From a virus: a stretch of 64,000 bases of DNA. Shown in pieces: positions 4,132 to 24,609 of this stretch (positions are counted from its first letter, which is position 1; each line of letters begins with the position of its first letter). The DNA is taken from positions 33,695 to 97,694 of IMG/VR virus record IMGVR_UViG_3300013014_000024. One strand, 5' to 3'. The translations under genes were made by a program, and so were the position numbers. The notes under the pieces are model-generated. The model ran no database searches. It was not told the DNA's origin and saw only the letters and a list, made by a program, of their open reading frames with translations.

Positions 4132-4902
4132 TTATTGTTTTTTTTTAAAAAAACTTTTTAATAAAGATAATTCTTTTTTTCCATCTGACAAACCAAAATA
4201 GTTAGTTTTTCTACCATTCCAATTTTTACCCATTTCATTAATTGTAGAATTTTCTGAATCTAAATGAACGCCAATTATTTCGGGTATCAACCCTCTATCT
4301 TTTCTTGCCCATTTTTTGGCGAAAAGAACATCGGTTCTATCCGCAGCTCCGTGAAATTCGGGGTATAAGTATATTCCCGAAGCTTTAGGATTCCACATTT
4401 GAAAAAACCCAATTGGTTCATACCCTTCAGACATATATTCTCCAATCCTAACACCTATTGGAAATGCGGTAGGATGAATATAAACCCAACCCGTATGAGT
4501 TTGTCTTGGACAAGAAATGAACTTAATCCATTCTTCAAAATTTGGACACATCATACGGTCTATTCCGTATATATTTTTTGGCTCCAAAGATATTCTTTCT
4601 AAGATTCCTCTGGTTAATGGAGGTAAGTACATATCAGCATCCAAATGAATTACCCAATCTTTTCTTGATAATTTATTTAGTCCGGCATTAATACCTTTAG
4701 CCTTATTAAATGAGTCACCATTTTTAGTGAATTCATCGGTTACCAAACATTCAACATTGTAATACTCACATAAATTTTTAGTTTTTTCGTCTTCAGGTGA
4801 AGTAACAACAATTAAATGATTAAATAATGGCTTGTTAAATGGTAATGTGTGTGATAAAAAATCACTGTAATTTACACACACTATAATTCCTTCTAAATAC
4901 AT
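4132..4902 (-). CDS. GT-A fold glycosyltransferase (GT2-like)
   Basis: FNKAKGINAG...WVIHLDAD (DxD) pattern. Confidence 0.7.
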   Translation of the reverse strand: MYLEGIIVCVNYSDFLSHTLPFNKPLFNHLIVVTSPEDEKTKNLCEYYNVECLVTDEFTKNGDSFNKAKGINAGLNKLSRKDWVIHLDADMYLPPLTRGILERISLEPKNIYGIDRMMCPNFEEWIKFISCPRQTHTGWVYIHPTAFPIGVRIGEYMSEGYEPIGFFQMWNPKASGIYLYPEFHGAADRTDVLFAKKWARKDRGLIPEIIGVHLDSENSTINEMGKNWNGRKTNYFGLSDGKKELSLLKSFFKKKQ

Positions 4903-16733: not shown

Positions 16734-17222
16734 TTAATTAAAAAAACTCTTTTGGAGGTCATCCCAAACATTTTGTAAAACATAATTATCGTTCATAATA
16801 GTAGGAACAAATGGTATGTGGTTCATTTTCATTTTGGCTTCTTCAGGAGTTCTATTTGCCTTTTTCAGATTACAACTGAAACAAGATGTTACCAGATTTT
16901 CCCAAGTATTTGCACCTCCTCTTGATTTAGGTATTACATGGTCAAGTGTTAATGATTTTTTTGACCCACAATAAACACATTCGTATCCATCTCTTTTATA
17001 AATCCTTGTTCTGTTTGCTCTATACGCTCTTTTATGAAACTTAATATATGTCAATAATCTTATAACTATTGGTCTCACATATTTCTTAACCCCACTAATC
17101 ATATCTTTCATGTCCGATTTAATAATTTCGGCTTTACCTTTATAAACAAGGTTAAATCCCCTCTGTATTGTTGTTACATTGATTGGGCTATAGTCAAAAT
17201 TTAATACAAGTACTTGTTCCAT
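16734..17222 (-). CDS. McrA-like HNH endonuclease
   Basis: VLVLN..Y.P, RDGYECVYCG, TLDHVIPKSRGG..TWENLVTSCFSCN. Confidence 0.9.
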   Translation of the reverse strand: MEQVLVLNFDYSPINVTTIQRGFNLVYKGKAEIIKSDMKDMISGVKKYVRPIVIRLLTYIKFHKRAYRANRTRIYKRDGYECVYCGSKKSLTLDHVIPKSRGGANTWENLVTSCFSCNLKKANRTPEEAKMKMNHIPFVPTIMNDNYVLQNVWDDLQKSFFN

Positions 17223-17390: not shown

Positions 17391-17453
17391 AACAATAAAT
17401 ATCCAAAATATTTTTGGAAAATCAAAATAGTTTATTACATTTGTAATCAATTA

Positions 17454-17489
17454 GGACTTGTAGCTCAGACGGTTAGAGCAGGAAACTCA
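17454..17489 (+). pseudogene. 5' half of a tRNA truncated in the anticodon loop (probably CAT)
   Basis: GGACTTG-TA-GCTC-AGACGGTTA-GAGC-A-GGAAA-CTCA then AT-rich sequence. TACATTTG promoter at 17436-17443. Confidence 0.75.
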
Positions 17490-17527
17490 ATAAAACTATA
17501 TAATAATATATTTATAAATAAAAATAT

Positions 17528-18193
17528 ATGGAATGTAAATATTGTGAAAAATCTTGCAAAAATCGTAATAGTTTGATAAACCACGAGAGGTTATGTAATT
17601 TTAATACTAACAGACAAATTATGGTAAGTAATTTAATAAATTACAATATTAAACGAAAGGAGTTAAAACTAAAAGGTACTAATCAATATATTAAATCCGA
17701 AAAATTAGGCTTACCAAAACCAATAGTTTCAGAAGAAACAAAGAAAAAAATATCTCAGAAAAAAAAAGGTATCAAATATTCTGAAGAACAAAAAATTAGA
17801 TGGTCAGAAATAATGAAGTTGGCGGTTCAGAAATATCCGGAAAGTTATACTAAAAATAATGTAGTTGGGAGAGTTAAGAATATTGATTATAAAGGTATTA
17901 AATTAAAAGGTAGTTGGGAAGTTTTGGTTGCAAAATGGTTAGATAATAATCATATTGTTTGGGAACACGAAACAAAGTGTTTTGATTACGTTTGGAATGG
18001 AAATAGGAAATATTATCCTGATTTTTATCTACCTGATTTTAACATTTATATAGAAGTAAAAGGATATGAAACAGAAAGAGATTTGGAAAAATGGAAAAAT
18101 ATTCCTAATTTAGTTGTGTTCAAGTTAAATGAAATAAATCAAATAAAAAATAATCCTTTAGGACTCTTATCGGCTCTCGCTCATAACGAGTAG
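17528..18193 (+). mobile_element. free-standing PD-(D/E)xK endonuclease with zinc finger and NUMOD3-like segment
   Basis: CKYC..H..C, SEETKKKIS, GSWE, YYPDFY...IEVKG. Confidence 0.8.
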
Positions 18194-18237
18194 AAACCGT
18201 AATTGGTTACATACAGGTTCAAGTCCTGTAGAGTCCA
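18161..18237 (+). tRNA. atypical tRNA-like RNA, anticodon CAT, no D arm at the normal position
   Basis: Acceptor GGACTCT/AGAGTCC. Anticodon arm CTCG-CTCATAA-CGAG. T arm ACAGG-TTCAAGT-CCTGT. Confidence 0.7.
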
Positions 18238-18253
18238 CTAAATTTTTTTAAAA

Positions 18254-18628
18254 ATGTCATACAATCATTATCAAAACGAGTTGAATAAAATAGACCGTTC
18301 GGTTTCAAGAATGTTTTTAGTACTAACAATTACCGTGTCATCTTTGGTTATAATGTCGTCAGGATATTATTTATTAAATTTTAATTCAAAAAAAGAAATG
18401 AGTGGTATAAATACGGTTACAAACAAAGTGGACACCGTATTAGTAAATCAATCTTCAATTGGAAGTAATTTAGAGTTAATTAATCAAAAACTAGATGAGA
18501 GTCTCCTTAATAATGAAATGGTTATGGATTCTATTGTTACAATTAAAAATGGTATTAGTAGGATTAATTATTCTGTAGGTAAAGTGAGCAAAAATATAGA
18601 CACGATTGTTCTTTACATAAAAAAATAA
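18254..18628 (+). CDS. membrane-anchored coiled-coil protein
   Basis: One TM segment. DTV, DSI, DTI sequons. Confidence 0.6.
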   Translation: MSYNHYQNELNKIDRSVSRMFLVLTITVSSLVIMSSGYYLLNFNSKKEMSGINTVTNKVDTVLVNQSSIGSNLELINQKLDESLLNNEMVMDSIVTIKNGISRINYSVGKVSKNIDTIVLYIKK

Positions 18629-21692: not shown

Positions 21693-21794
21693 TGTTAGGT
21701 AGTGGATATGTAAGCGGGCTCAAGCTCGGTAAGTCAAAAAGGTTATGATTCTCTTTACGAGACCACGTTGTCGGTTCGAGTCCGACCTTAACAA
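21693..21794 (+). ncRNA. tRNA-like RNA with non-canonical interior
   Basis: Acceptor TGTTAGG/CTTAACA and T arm GTCGG-TTCGAGT-CCGAC intact. D and anticodon region expanded. Confidence 0.6.
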
Positions 21795-22523: not shown

Positions 22524-22609
22524 ACGTGTGTGGCCGAGAGGTTTAGGCAACAGTCTCCAAAACTGTACGGACGAAAGTCCTAACGTGGGTTCGAATCCTA
22601 CCATACGTG
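22524..22609 (+). tRNA. tRNA with anticodon CCA (Trp) and long variable arm
   Basis: ACAGT-CTCCAAA-ACTGT. Variable arm GGAC-GAAA-GTCC. G73. Confidence 0.85.
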
Positions 22610-22809
22610 CAAAAGGTTGATTGGGGAATGGGATATCGCAACCTGATGATGGAGGTTGGAGATTCTCGGAGTTGAAATCATCAAGTAATGCCAATCGTAA
22701 AAGGAGTTGTCCACTCGACCATCTTCTCCTTTCCTAACTTTTGGAAGTATTGTTTATTTTGAGTTATCCGCGGTTTGAGTATAGATACTCAACAATTAGT
22801 TCTTTGAAT

Positions 22810-22894
22810 TGCTTCGTTGCCGTAGTGGCCGAACGGTCCAGACTGTTAATCTGGTGTGTAAAAACCATCGTAGGTTCGAATCCTACCGAAGCAG
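22810..22894 (+). tRNA. tRNA with anticodon GTT (Asn) and 15-nt variable region
   Basis: CCAGA-CTGTTAA-TCTGG. TGCTTCG/CGAAGCA. G73. Confidence 0.85.
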
Positions 22895-22979
22895 CTTTAA
22901 ATACGGAGATAAAAAAATAAAACTATACAAAGTATAGTTTTAGGGTTCAACTTACATATTTATATGTAAAGACTTAGTT

Positions 22980-23609
22980 ATGAAACATTGTGTAAAATGT
23001 AATAGAGAATTTGAACCAAAAAAGGGCCTCATAAATTATTGTAGTTTAGAGTGTAGAAACAGTAGAAGTTGGACAGAAAATGACAAAATTAAAAAATCTA
23101 TTTCAGCAAAAAATTCAGATAAAGTAAAAATTGCAAATAAAAAAATAGGTTTATTAAATCATGAAAAGGCCACAATAAAAACTATGTGTCTACATTGTCA
23201 AGAACTAATAGTTCACACTAGATGGAAATCAAGAAAATATCACAAAGAATGCTGGTTGAAGTCATCTGGGGGATATAGGGAAAATTCAACTGTAAAACAC
23301 AAATGTTTTTATAAAGGGGTTTGTATGGATTCTGGCTCTGAAAAAGAATTTGCCATAAAATGTGATGAACATAATATTGCTTGGGAAAAAAACAATATAA
23401 TATACTTTGAATACATAGGGGTTGATGGTAAAAAACATAAATATTATCCTGATTTTTATATAAAAAAAAGTAATAAATGGGTTGAAATAAAAGGAAAATT
23501 ATATGGTGAAAAAGATGTAAATTTGGAAAAAAAATTATTGTCAGTAGATAACATTATTTTGATATATTCTAAAGAAATTAAAAAATTTGATTTTGGTCTA
23601 TTGGTGTAA
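22980..23609 (+). mobile_element. free-standing PD-(D/E)xK endonuclease with Cys-rich N-terminus
   Basis: CVKC..YCSLEC, DSGSE, YYPDFY...WVEIKG. Confidence 0.8.
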
Positions 23610-23667
23610 GGGCTAACATGTCGCACTGTCGATGCGAAGACTCTCGGTTCGAATCCGTGATAGACCG
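23595..23667 (+). tRNA. tRNA-Asp(GTC)
   Basis: TCGCA-CTGTCGA-TGCGA. G73. Confidence 0.85.
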
Positions 23668-23712
23668 CAGTGAGTAAGAGATACTCAGAGTCTTTAATCC
23701 AAGACTTAAACA

Positions 23713-24200: not shown

Positions 24201-24325
24201 GGTCAGGTGGCGGAATTGGTATACGATGAAAAACTGCAATGAGGTAGGTCGAACCTCACATTAAACAAAAAAGGCATCAACGCAGGAGTGCGGAAGCGTT
24301 GCAGGTTCGAATCCTGTCCTGACTA
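24201..24325 (+). ncRNA. Leu-like tRNA body with replaced anticodon domain
   Basis: GGTCAGG-TGGCGGAATTGGTATACG...GCAGG-TTCGAAT-CCTGT-CCTGACT-A. Confidence 0.65.
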
Positions 24326-24450: not shown

Positions 24451-24609
24451 AGTCAGGTGGCGGAATGTTATTAACCCGTTCTAGACGTAAAAATAATGTG
24501 GTTAAAATCCACTACGGGGTCAATGTAACTTGGTAGACGCTCGCTAGAAGGTGCGGTTAGTCAACGATAAGGTAAAGCTAACATACAGGTTCAAATCCTG
24601 TCCTGACTA
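24451..24609 (+). ncRNA. Leu-like tRNA body with about 64-nt D-loop insertion
   Basis: AGTCAGG-TGGCGGAA[insert]TTGGTAGACGC...ACAGG-TTCAAAT-CCTGT-CCTGACT-A. Confidence 0.65.

What the first reader, a model, noticed from the sequence alone, without database searches (positions are those of the whole stretch)
18161..18240. Rearranged CAT-anticodon tRNA with a D-loop-like sequence 3' of the anticodon arm
Seen: perfect acceptor and T arms and a CTCATAA loop, but only about 7 nt between acceptor and anticodon stems, so no D arm. The 21-nt segment after the anticodon arm contains TAATTGGTTA, which resembles a D loop with the conserved GG. CGG (18171-18173) can pair with CCG (18197-18199), enclosing the anticodon arm. 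Inference: a topologically rewired tRNA that may still form the elbow, either functional and nuclease-resistant or acting as a decoy.
Basis: partly seen in the sequence, partly recalled or inferred. Interest (0 to 1): 0.75.

Follow-up and report, generated by a model that had tools for sequence, protein, structure and literature searches.

The report
Phage CAU tRNA with rewired core
This 77-base phage gene is very probably a working transfer RNA (anticodon CAU) that has every standard tRNA part, but the D-arm is taken apart and rebuilt around the anticodon arm; at least 120 sequence variants share this layout, gene finders miss it, and I found no paper describing it.

Summary
Window 18161-18237 (+) has a perfect 7-bp acceptor stem, a T arm and a CUCAUAA loop, but no D hairpin.

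It is not a decayed tRNA. I found 120 distinct sequences with the same layout in viral and metagenome contigs. All four helices covary, including the 3-bp helix CGG:CCG that encloses the anticodon arm. That helix is paired in 120 of 120 sequences, in 16 different combinations. A 15-48 Levitt-type pair also covaries (A-U 82, G-C 32, other 6).

Read in standard numbering, segment 10-21 (the 5' D-stem strand plus the D loop with G18G19) sits 3' of the anticodon arm, after an almost invariant GAAA linker. The D/anticodon domain is therefore circularly permuted.

The same scaffold carries GAU and UAU anticodons in other phages, including cultured Bacteroides, Streptomyces and Microbacterium phages, where it is unannotated.

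Whether it accepts isoleucine (as tRNA-Ile2) or methionine is unresolved. I lean towards Ile2.

Locally, a homing-endonuclease-like ORF ends 33 nt inside the tRNA, and an orphan canonical tRNA 5' half lies upstream of that ORF. This arrangement recurs in at least 10 loci.

There is no expression evidence. Earlier unchecked notes of this scan report the same layout on other DNA (Arg, Ile, Met). I found no paper on it.

The parts
18161..18237 (+). Whole rewired tRNA(CAU) gene, 77 nt, ending at discriminator A73. C follows at 18238; no CCA is encoded.
   Evidence: RF00005 32.6 bits. Family model R1 97.2 bits, the only strong hit in the window or contig. 120 distinct homologues.
18161..18167 (+). 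Acceptor stem, 5' strand (positions 1-7).
   Evidence: Pairs 7/7 with 18230-18236. All 7 pairs show double changes across 42 sequences, 97.6% paired.
18168..18169 (+). U8 A9.
   Evidence: TA in 120/120 sequences, although neither the search patterns nor my parser fixed it.
18170..18173 (+). U22 C23 G24 G25: equivalent of the 3' strand of the D stem, here joined directly to A9.
   Evidence: Positions 23-25 pair with 12-10 (18199-18197) in 120/120 sequences, in 16 combinations. U22.U13 occurs in about 119/120.
18174..18174 (+). C26.
   Evidence: C in 119/120.
18175..18191 (+). Anticodon arm: U27.U43 mismatch, 4 Watson-Crick pairs (18176-18179 with 18187-18190), loop CUCAUAA (18180-18186), anticodon CAU at 18182-18184.
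   Evidence: 4/4 stem pairs have double changes. U27.U43 in 120/120. The loop was fixed by my search patterns, so its invariance is not informative.
18192..18196 (+). N44 (A here) plus the GAAA linker that joins the anticodon arm to the relocated D-stem strand.
   Evidence: GAAA in 119/120 although unconstrained in the searches; N44 is T 64, A 54, C 2. In this window U43-A44-G forms the TAG stop of the upstream ORF.
18197..18200 (+). C10 C11 G12 U13: equivalent of the 5' strand of the D stem, relocated 3' of the anticodon arm.
   Evidence: Covaries with 18170-18173. RNAalifold predicts the helix on its own.
18201..18209 (+). D-loop equivalent: A14 A15 U16 U17 G18 G19 U20 U20a A21.
   Evidence: A14, G18 and G19 are invariant in alignment A2 but were also fixed by the search pattern. 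R15 covaries with Y48.
18210..18212 (+). C-A-U connector to the T stem. The last base is the equivalent of Y48.
   Evidence: 15-48: A-U 82, G-C 32, other 6 of 120. In A2: AU 28, GC 10, GU 1, other 3.
18213..18229 (+). T arm (5-bp stem, loop TTCAAGT).
   Evidence: 4/5 pairs have double changes.
18230..18237 (+). Acceptor 3' strand plus discriminator A73.
   Evidence: A73 in 120/120. The last 24 nt are identical to canonical CAU and GAU tRNAs in other viral contigs.
17528..18193 (+). ORF of 221 aa: zinc-finger plus PD-(D/E)XK-type homing-endonuclease-like protein. Its last 11 codons and its stop lie inside the tRNA.
   Evidence: phrog_15137 'endonuclease' E 3.9e-33 over residues 1-208; weak Pfam Phage_endo_I and DUF7487 hits. 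The same family overlaps the 5' part of the rewired tRNA by 18-41 nt in at least 10 dereplicated loci, in all three reading frames.
17454..17490 (+). Orphan 5' half of a canonical tRNA (acceptor strand, U8 A9, full D arm, A26, 5' anticodon-stem strand, CTCA). It breaks off in the anticodon loop 38 nt before the ORF's ATG.
   Evidence: Read directly. The same is seen in L143 and L138, and shorter remnants lie upstream of most copies of this ORF family. Rfam does not score it.

Best explanation
Window 18161-18237 encodes a functional, translation-competent tRNA with anticodon CAU whose D/anticodon domain is circularly permuted.

Proposed strand path: after U8-A9 the chain goes straight into the strand that normally is 22-25, then through C26 and the anticodon arm. 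It returns through U43, N44 and a GAAA linker into the strand that normally is 10-13, which pairs back onto 22-25. It then runs through a normal-looking D loop (A14 R15 Y16 U17 G18 G19 U20 N A21) and a C-A-Y48 connector into the T arm.

The three changed joints are 9 to 22, 44 to 10 and 21 to 46-48. In the canonical L-shape these connect residues that are close neighbours. So the same tertiary core can form: U8-A14, R15-Y48, G18/G19 with the T loop, and the D stem stacked on the anticodon stem.

Shown here: the helices, their covariation, the covarying 15-48 pair, and the conservation of the core residues.

Inferred: the L-shape, processing, CCA addition and charging.

Identity, my estimates: about 55% tRNA-Ile2 (C34 turned into lysidine by the host TilS, reading AUA), about 35% elongator tRNA-Met, about 10% other.

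Local context: the gene sits at the 3' end of a homing-endonuclease-like ORF that appears to have interrupted a canonical tRNA-Ile2-like gene.
For: Family and covariation:
- I collected 120 distinct 77-78-nt sequences of this layout from about 168 loci.
- On 42 sequences, double changes occur in 7/7 acceptor pairs, 3/3 pairs of the enclosing helix, 4/4 anticodon-stem pairs and 4/5 T-stem pairs. The covariation score is 0.712 against 0.190 for shuffles (0 of 500 reach it) and 0.056-0.153 for slid partners.
- RNAalifold predicts the same helices independently.
- The enclosing helix is paired in 120/120 sequences, in 16 combinations.

Conserved residues that neither the search patterns nor the parser fixed: U8A9 120/120, C26 119/120, U27.U43 120/120, GAAA 119/120, U13.U22 about 119/120, A73 120/120.

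Tertiary pair 15-48: A-U 82, G-C 32, other 6.

Genomic behaviour:
- The genes sit in phage tRNA arrays.
- In one metagenome contig, homology to the window stops exactly at the tRNA borders, 18158-18238.
- Between the window and L015 the tRNA keeps 71 of 77 bases, while the block it lies in is 80.6% identical, with a compensatory U5-A68 to C5-G68 change.

The same scaffold with GAU or UAU in normal 7-nt loops scores 74-87 bits. This argues for decoding.

For Ile2:
- The acceptor stems of the window and L015 match 5/7 and 6/7 of E. coli tRNA-Ile2, including C4-G69.
- The canonical CAU tRNA that shares the window's last 24 nt best matches E. coli tRNA-Ile(CAU).
- In L287 a CAU member and a GAU member share the acceptor stem, T stem and D loop.
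- ATA accounts for 36% of Ile codons in the contig, which holds no other AUA decoder.
Against: - There is no expression, processing or charging evidence. The one metatranscriptome run covers only 18359-18600.
- No 3D model was computed, so the L-shape is argued from known tRNA geometry.
- CTCATAA, A14, G18G19 and part of the T loop were fixed by my search patterns, so their invariance proves nothing.
- Related sequences inflate the shuffle controls.
- RNase P cleavage at the tRNA 5' end would remove the ORF's stop codon, so either the overlap has a cost or the tRNA is not efficiently matured here.

Against Ile2 and for Met:
- UAU-type tRNAs, which are also AUA decoders, co-occur with the CAU type in 11 of 40 tRNA-rich loci.
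- 24 of those 40 loci have no other CAU tRNA.
- An unmodified CAU would be read as Met (established knowledge).
- No TilS domain is present in the contig, which is only about 32% of the genome.
Confidence: 0.85

Rival explanations
1. The RNA is an elongator tRNA-Met: the host TilS does not modify C34, MetRS charges it through the CAU anticodon, and it reads AUG.
For: In 24 of 40 tRNA-rich loci the rewired gene is the only CAU tRNA found. Where others occur, most have U1-A72 or C1.A72 and look like initiators. UAU-type AUA decoders co-occur in 11 of 40 loci, which would make an Ile2 redundant there. MetRS relies mainly on the anticodon (established knowledge), so it should tolerate a rebuilt core.
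Against: The acceptor stem is Ile2-like. Canonical relatives sharing the 3' end best match E. coli tRNA-Ile(CAU). The scaffold is shared with GAU and UAU isoleucine tRNAs. The orphan 5' half upstream resembles the 5' half of a tRNA-Ile2-like gene.
Confidence: 0.35
2. It is a tRNA-shaped RNA that does not decode. It could be a decoy for host tRNA nucleases or modification enzymes, a processing signal that ends the endonuclease mRNA, or a structure kept only as the endonuclease's homing site.
For: There is no expression or charging evidence. The gene is tightly linked to a homing-endonuclease-like ORF in at least 10 loci. The core differs from every tRNA known to work on ribosomes.
Against: Over 100 of the roughly 118 dereplicated loci lack the ORF beside the tRNA, and many of the genes sit inside ordinary tRNA arrays. 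RNA-level pairing, not DNA sequence, is conserved through compensatory changes. The scaffold carries three different anticodons in canonical 7-nt loops. The discriminator is conserved. In many arrays it fills the place of a missing isoacceptor.
Confidence: 0.1
3. It is a broken canonical tRNA: a recent D-arm deletion or a by-product of endonuclease insertion, with no function.
For: An orphan canonical 5' half and an inserted ORF lie directly upstream. ARAGORN does not call the gene.
Against: 120 distinct variants keep every helix through compensatory changes, and the linker and core residues are almost invariant. The layout is found in lake, gut and soil phages, including cultured ones.
Confidence: 0.02
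4. The transcript is cut and religated into the canonical order, as happens with the permuted tRNA genes of a red alga, so the mature tRNA is ordinary.
For: Phages are known to encode RNA ligases and repair enzymes (established knowledge). All canonical parts are present.
Against: Two cuts and two ligations inside the core would be needed. No bulge-helix-bulge or intron-like motif is conserved. The GAAA linker and the C-A-Y connector are conserved as if they were part of the final RNA. Rfam finds no group I intron here.
Confidence: 0.03

Closest known systems
Canonical bacterial and phage tRNA-Ile2(CAU), e.g. the E. coli chromosomal tRNA-Ile with anticodon CAT read
   Same: Both have a 7-bp acceptor stem with C4-G69, A73, a CUCAUAA loop, a T arm with a TTCAAGT loop, a D loop with G18G19, and about the same length (77 nt without CCA). 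All standard parts are present.
   Different: The order of the parts differs. Segment 10-21 follows the anticodon arm instead of preceding 22-25. There is a GAAA linker, constant U13.U22 and U27.U43 mismatches, and no D hairpin. RF00005 scores only 32.6 bits, against 39-71 for the window's ordinary tRNAs.
D-armless mitochondrial tRNAs (e.g. nematode mt-tRNA-Ser; review PMC7609411)
   Same: There is no D hairpin between the acceptor stem and the anticodon stem.
   Different: In those tRNAs the D arm is lost and replaced by a short flexible connector. Here the D stem and D loop are kept and rebuilt from non-contiguous strands, and the elbow residues are conserved.
Circularly permuted tRNA genes of Cyanidioschyzon merolae (my knowledge; not read here)
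   Same: Both involve a permutation of tRNA gene segments.
   Different: In that case the whole gene is permuted at the acceptor ends, and RNA processing restores a canonical tRNA. Here the acceptor ends are normal, and only the internal D/anticodon domain is permuted, apparently in the mature RNA.
Other non-canonical tRNAs: tRNA-Sec, allo-tRNA (8/4, 9/3), tRNA-Pyl (PMC7609411, PMC5389517)
   Same: These are natural tRNAs that depart from the 7/5 cloverleaf and were found by metagenome mining.
   Different: They change stem lengths but keep the cloverleaf connectivity. None changes the strand order.
Endonuclease genes associated with tRNA genes: intron-encoded I-Ssp6803I in a cyanobacterial tRNA-fMet anticodon loop, and T4 SegB in the tRNA cluster (my knowledge; not read here)
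   Same: A PD-(D/E)XK-type endonuclease gene is associated with the anticodon loop of a CAU tRNA gene, or sits inside a phage tRNA cluster.
   Different: No group I intron is detectable here. The interrupted 5' half cannot pair with the downstream anticodon-stem strand. A complete rewired tRNA follows instead of a 3' exon.

Membership tests
Canonical cloverleaf tRNA (Rfam RF00005) | 7-bp acceptor stem with a discriminator base | tested here: met
   7/7 pairs in the window; all 7 pairs covary.
Canonical cloverleaf tRNA (Rfam RF00005) | T arm: 5-bp stem and a 7-nt T-psi-C loop | tested here: met
   18213-18229; 4/5 pairs covary.
Canonical cloverleaf tRNA (Rfam RF00005) | Anticodon arm with a 7-nt loop, U33 and purine 37 | tested here: met
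   Loop CUCAUAA; 4 Watson-Crick pairs plus a constant U27.U43.
Canonical cloverleaf tRNA (Rfam RF00005) | D hairpin (10-13 paired to 22-25 around the D loop) lying between position 9 and position 26 | tested here: not met
   Only 5 nt lie between A9 and U27 (18170-18174). RF00005 aligns the element with the D arm deleted. The partner strand and the loop lie 3' of the anticodon arm.
Canonical cloverleaf tRNA (Rfam RF00005) | Reaches the Rfam gathering score or is called by a gene finder | tested here: inconclusive
   32.6 bits against a gathering score of 29 in a 201-nt search, but not listed in the whole-window run. ARAGORN of 120 family members.
Class II tRNA (long variable arm) | A base-paired variable-arm hairpin between the anticodon arm and the T arm | tested here: not met
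   The hairpin in the window's minimum-energy fold has no double changes and breaks wherever the enclosing helix covaries.
Rewired phage tRNA with permuted D/anticodon domain (named only in earlier notes of this scan; unpublished as far as I found) | Helix 23-25:12-10 encloses the anticodon arm, and a D-loop-like segment with GG follows it | tested here: met
Rewired phage tRNA with permuted D/anticodon domain (named only in earlier notes of this scan; unpublished as far as I found) | The same layout occurs with other anticodons in phage tRNA arrays | tested here: met
   GAU and UAU occur on the same scaffold (74-87 bits). GAU, UAU, UCU, UCG and ACG occur on a related scaffold (28-56 bits).
tRNA-Ile2 (lysidine tRNA) | CAU anticodon with acceptor pairs C4-G69 and C5-G68 (TilS determinants in E. 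coli, from my knowledge) | tested here: inconclusive
   The window has C4-G69 and U5-A68; L015 has C4-G69 and C5-G68. Across the family, C4-G69 occurs in 96/120 and C5-G68 in 52/120. E. coli tRNA-Ile(CAT) was read.
tRNA-Ile2 (lysidine tRNA) | C34 converted to lysidine, and charging by IleRS | not testable with these tools
   Needs mass spectrometry and charging assays. No TilS domain is present in the partial contig.
Homing endonuclease, PD-(D/E)XK type (ORF 17528-18193) | Match to a nuclease family, and mosaic or mobile distribution | tested here: met
   phrog_15137 E 3.9e-33. The family is present beside the tRNA in about 14 of 118 loci and absent from the rest. Cleavage activity and target are untested.

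The most novel reading that the evidence does not exclude
The rewired tRNA is an endonuclease-immune replacement allele. In this reading, the PD-(D/E)XK homing endonuclease cuts canonical tRNA-Ile2-type genes in the anticodon-loop region. It then spreads together with a functional tRNA whose DNA upstream of the anticodon loop no longer resembles the target, because the D-arm segments have been moved.

More broadly, permutation of the tRNA core in phages would be driven by conflict with nucleases that recognise tRNA genes or tRNAs, and would not be neutral drift.
Probability: 0.25. Interest if true: 0.92.

Novelty: new variant of a known kind. Interest (0 to 1): 0.85.

Why it matters
The cloverleaf connectivity of tRNA is treated as universal. 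Known exceptions shorten or lose arms but keep the strand order.

A large natural family that keeps every part but threads the strands differently would show that the L-shaped core can be built from another topology. It would also mean that phage tRNA sets are systematically under-counted, since ARAGORN of 120 members. It would offer a natural scaffold for orthogonal tRNA design.

The link to a homing endonuclease and an interrupted canonical tRNA gives a testable idea of how and why such a rearrangement spreads.

Because the same scaffold occurs in cultured Bacteroides, Streptomyces and Microbacterium phages, the question can be tested directly at the bench.

Tried and rejected
- ARAGORN with default, -ps, intron and mitochondrial settings gave either nothing or implausible folds: an alternative acceptor register starting at 18171 with a 6-nt 'anticodon' loop, or a mt-Ser call. 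I rejected both. The 18161 register pairs 7/7 and covaries.
- The single-sequence minimum-energy fold, with a shifted anticodon stem plus a variable-arm hairpin, has no covariation support.
- Relatives fetched through the downstream 351-aa protein (L008-L014) do not carry the element. The 124-aa protein found no relatives.
- blastn of the window's tRNA, and of L167's, against cultured and deposited phages found nothing.
- Group I intron or exon reading of the orphan 5' half: Rfam finds no intron there. The orphan's anticodon-stem strand (GGAAA) has no partner downstream.
- Expression: the only RNA run holding part of the stretch covers 18359-18600, not the tRNA. This counts neither for nor against.
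- TilS (PF01171) is not found in the contig, but the contig is only about 32% of the genome.
- The genome-contig scan gave 4 true members, all on MAG contigs, and 3 chance hits. This gives no reliable host assignment.
- Promoter and terminator scans around the gene showed nothing above shuffles on the + strand.
- Seven literature searches and the 2020 review of non-canonical tRNAs found no description of this layout. Subscription journals are not covered.

Full report
**What is there.** The window is part of a 97.7-kb IMG/VR viral contig with 30% G+C, estimated at about 32% complete. ARAGORN finds 15 tRNA genes on the contig, 14 of them in the window, and Rfam finds a group I intron.
- a 7/7 acceptor stem;
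- a T arm with loop TTCAAGT;
- a CTCATAA loop closed by four Watson-Crick pairs;
- only eight bases between the acceptor and anticodon stems;
- TAATTGGTTA after the anticodon arm;
- CGG (18171-18173) complementary to CCG (18197-18199).

ARAGORN does not call it. Rfam's tRNA model gives 32.6 bits (gathering score 29) in a local search, with the D arm treated as deleted and 18 nt treated as an insert. The whole-window run at gathering threshold had not listed it.

**Homologues.** An exact search for the last 24 nt found only canonical tRNAs in other viral contigs: CAU in L003 and L004/5, GAU in L006/7. The upstream ORF led to one close relative, L015 (76% protein identity). There the element differs at 6 of 77 positions, including a compensatory U5-A68 to C5-G68 change.

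A generic pattern (CAU loop, a long gap, then a T loop), followed by an acceptor-pairing filter, revealed six more contigs with the same layout. Two more specific patterns gave 37 and 47 viral stretches. The second of these left the enclosing helix, the linker and the 5' region unconstrained. In 185,579 species genomes it found only four true members, all on MAG contigs. In total I parsed 120 distinct sequences of 77-78 nt from about 168 loci. ARAGORN calls none of them.

**Structure.** On 42 distinct sequences (alignment A2) I counted pairs for a nested structure: acceptor stem, a helix enclosing the anticodon arm, anticodon stem, one long-range pair, and T stem.

| Measure | Result |
|---|---|
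| Cells forming standard pairs | 88.1% (shuffles 60.9%; slid partners 29-49%) |
| Covariation score | 0.712 (shuffles 0.190, 0 of 500 reach it; slid partners 0.056-0.153) |
| Acceptor stem | double changes at 7/7 pairs |
| Enclosing helix | double changes at 3/3 pairs |
| Anticodon stem | double changes at 4/4 pairs |
| T stem | double changes at 4/5 pairs |

RNAalifold predicted the same helices without guidance. Across the 120 sequences the enclosing helix is paired in every one, in 16 different combinations.

The window's minimum-energy fold, with a shifted anticodon stem and a variable-arm hairpin, has no double changes and breaks where the enclosing helix covaries. I reject it.

**Reading in standard numbering.** The strand after A9 (U-C-G-G) behaves as 22-25, followed by C26 and U27. 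The strand after the anticodon arm (C-C-G-U) behaves as 10-13. It is followed by A14 R15 Y16 U17 G18 G19 U20 N A21, then C-A-Y, then the T stem.

In members such as L167 the relocated segment begins with G10 C11 and ends, after the GG, in UUA (A21). Its first two and last eleven bases match positions 10-21 of canonical tRNAs such as L004's.

The following are conserved although no search fixed them:

| Residue(s) | Count |
|---|---|
| U8A9 | 120/120 |
| C26 | 119/120 |
| U27.U43 | 120/120 |
| GAAA linker | 119/120 |
| U13.U22 | about 119/120 |
| A73 | 120/120 |

R15 covaries with the Y before the T stem (A-U 82, G-C 32, other 6), as a Levitt pair would.

The element is therefore a tRNA whose D/anticodon domain is circularly permuted. 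Positions 44 and 10 are joined through GAAA, and the chain is opened between 21 and 22. In the canonical L-shape these positions lie next to 9 and to 46-48 (established structural knowledge). The same tertiary core is therefore sterically plausible. This last step is inference; I could not build a 3D model.

**Is it a decoder?** The loop sequence of the CAU set was fixed by my patterns and so proves nothing. However, a covariance model built from A2 (R1) found the same scaffold with GAU and UAU anticodons in ordinary 7-nt loops at 74-87 bits. It also found a related scaffold with GAU, UAU, UCU, UCG and ACG at 28-56 bits, in the same phage tRNA arrays.

The GAU form occurs, unannotated, in cultured phages:
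- Kehishuvirus 'tikkala' (Bacteroides), between annotated tRNA-Trp and tRNA-Met;
- about 77 Streptomyces phages, e.g. Mildred21, just downstream of a tRNA nucleotidyltransferase gene;
- Microbacterium phage Magritte, beside a UCU form.

In a metagenome contig from another study, homology to the window stops exactly at the tRNA borders. All this fits a working tRNA gene. A pseudogene is excluded. A non-decoding tRNA mimic remains possible at about 10%.

**Which amino acid?**

For tRNA-Ile2:
- The window and L015 acceptor stems match the E. coli tRNA-Ile(CAT) stem at 5/7 and 6/7 positions, including C4-G69.
- The canonical CAU tRNA that shares the window's last 24 nt best matches genes annotated tRNA-Ile in all 5,426 E. 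coli genomes, and the one I read has anticodon CAT.
- The scaffold is shared with GAU and UAU isoleucine tRNAs, and in L287 a CAU and a GAU copy are near-twins.
- ATA is as frequent as ATG in this phage (26.6 per 1000 codons each), and the contig has no other AUA decoder.

For tRNA-Met:
- UAU-type genes accompany the CAU type in 11 of 40 tRNA-rich loci.
- In 24 of those 40 loci the rewired gene is the only CAU tRNA.
- Most accompanying canonical CAU tRNAs look initiator-like.
- An unmodified CAU is a methionine anticodon (established knowledge).

I put Ile2 at about 55% and Met at about 35%.

**Local context.** ORF 17528-18193 is a zinc-finger plus PD-(D/E)XK endonuclease-like protein (phrog_15137, E 3.9e-33 over residues 1-208). 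Its last 11 codons and its TAG stop (U43-A44-G) lie inside the tRNA.

Clustering of ORFs from 118 dereplicated family loci showed that the three commonest neighbour families are endonuclease-like. The window's family overlaps the 5' part of the rewired tRNA by 18-41 nt, on the same strand, in at least 10 loci. All three reading frames are used, and each ends at a stop codon inside the tRNA. In two loci the ORF lies just downstream of the tRNA instead.

Following a first-reader note on this genome, I confirmed an orphan canonical tRNA 5' half at 17454-17490 that breaks off in the anticodon loop 38 nt before the ATG. The same is seen in L143 and L138, and shorter remnants (end of the D loop, 3' D-stem strand, position 26, 5' anticodon-stem strand, CTY) precede most copies of this ORF family.

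The orphan acceptor strand still pairs with the acceptor 3' strand used by the rewired tRNA: five Watson-Crick pairs and one G-U of seven in the window, four and two in L143, and all seven in L138.

Homology between the window and L143 covers exactly orphan half + ORF + rewired tRNA (17451-18254). The segments on both sides are not alike.

This is not an intron. No group I core is detected, and the orphan's anticodon-stem strand has no partner downstream. My reading (inference) is that the endonuclease gene homes into canonical tRNA-Ile2-type genes and travels with the rewired tRNA, which supplies the lost function. Whether the rewired allele is immune to the enzyme is untested.

**Known or new.** Seven full-text searches and the 2020 review of non-canonical tRNAs (PMC7609411) list tRNA-Sec, allo-tRNA, tRNA-Pyl and armless mitochondrial tRNAs. 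None has a changed strand order.

Earlier notes of this scan, which are AI-written and unchecked, report the same layout for Arg, Ile and Met tRNAs in other phage DNA. My searches reproduce that independently, so this window adds a CAU member and the endonuclease link rather than a first sighting.

I class it as a new variant of a known kind. No expression or charging data exist, and the decisive experiments are listed under next steps.

Noticed in passing
window 17454-17490 (+); also L143:1326-1360 and upstream of the ORF in L138, L053, L173, L247, L298, L299, L024, L139, L236: An orphan 5' half of a canonical tRNA, or a shorter remnant ending in the anticodon loop, lies 35-50 nt upstream of the start codon of most copies of the endonuclease-like ORF family. 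Its acceptor strand still matches the acceptor 3' strand of the rewired tRNA downstream.
   Followed up: partly
window 22980-23609 (+) and tRNA-Asp 23595-23668: A distant paralogue of the endonuclease-like ORF (32% identity over the nuclease domain) ends 15 nt inside a canonical tRNA-Asp. Ending inside a tRNA is therefore a habit of this ORF type and is not specific to the rewired gene.
   Followed up: partly
OQ198717.1 95577-95653; NC_042008.1 73703-73779; OR553905.1 73536-73612 and 73446-73522: Unannotated rewired tRNAs (GAU, plus one UCU) occur in cultured phages of Bacteroides, Streptomyces (about 77 records) and Microbacterium. They score 84-86 bits with the family model, and the UCU one 43.5.
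   Followed up: partly
window 24518-24609, 21704-21794, 24201-24325 (+): These are weak tRNA-like matches (family model 19.2 and 15.3 bits; RF00005 28.5 bits over 125 nt) that ARAGORN does not call. They may be further unusual or interrupted tRNA genes.
   Followed up: no
window 22524-22610 (tRNA-Trp, 87 nt) and 22810-22895 (tRNA-Asn, 86 nt): Both are about 12 nt longer than usual for class I tRNAs, which suggests extra arms or inserts.
   Followed up: no
many viral loci, e.g. L027/L074/L090/L095, L021, L017/L084, L024:10648-10734: Canonical-order phage CAU tRNAs with long variable arms are common, with over 100 hits in a single scan. Many have U1-A72 or C1.A72 like initiators.
   Followed up: no
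L008:2182-2277, L009:2909-3000, L010:2640-2735 (-): Relatives of this phage carry 92-96-nt genes that ARAGORN calls tRNA-Ile(UAU). They are far longer than normal.
   Followed up: no
window 16734-17222 (-): An HNH endonuclease ORF lies between the ClpP gene and the orphan tRNA half. It is absent at the same place in the related contig L143, which marks it as a separate mobile insertion.
   Followed up: partly
L171:4089-4165 and 4761-4837; L287:684-760 and 4178-4254: Some phages carry two rewired genes on the same scaffold. L171 has two different CAU types. L287 has a CAU/GAU pair with identical acceptor stems, T stems and D loops.
   Followed up: partly
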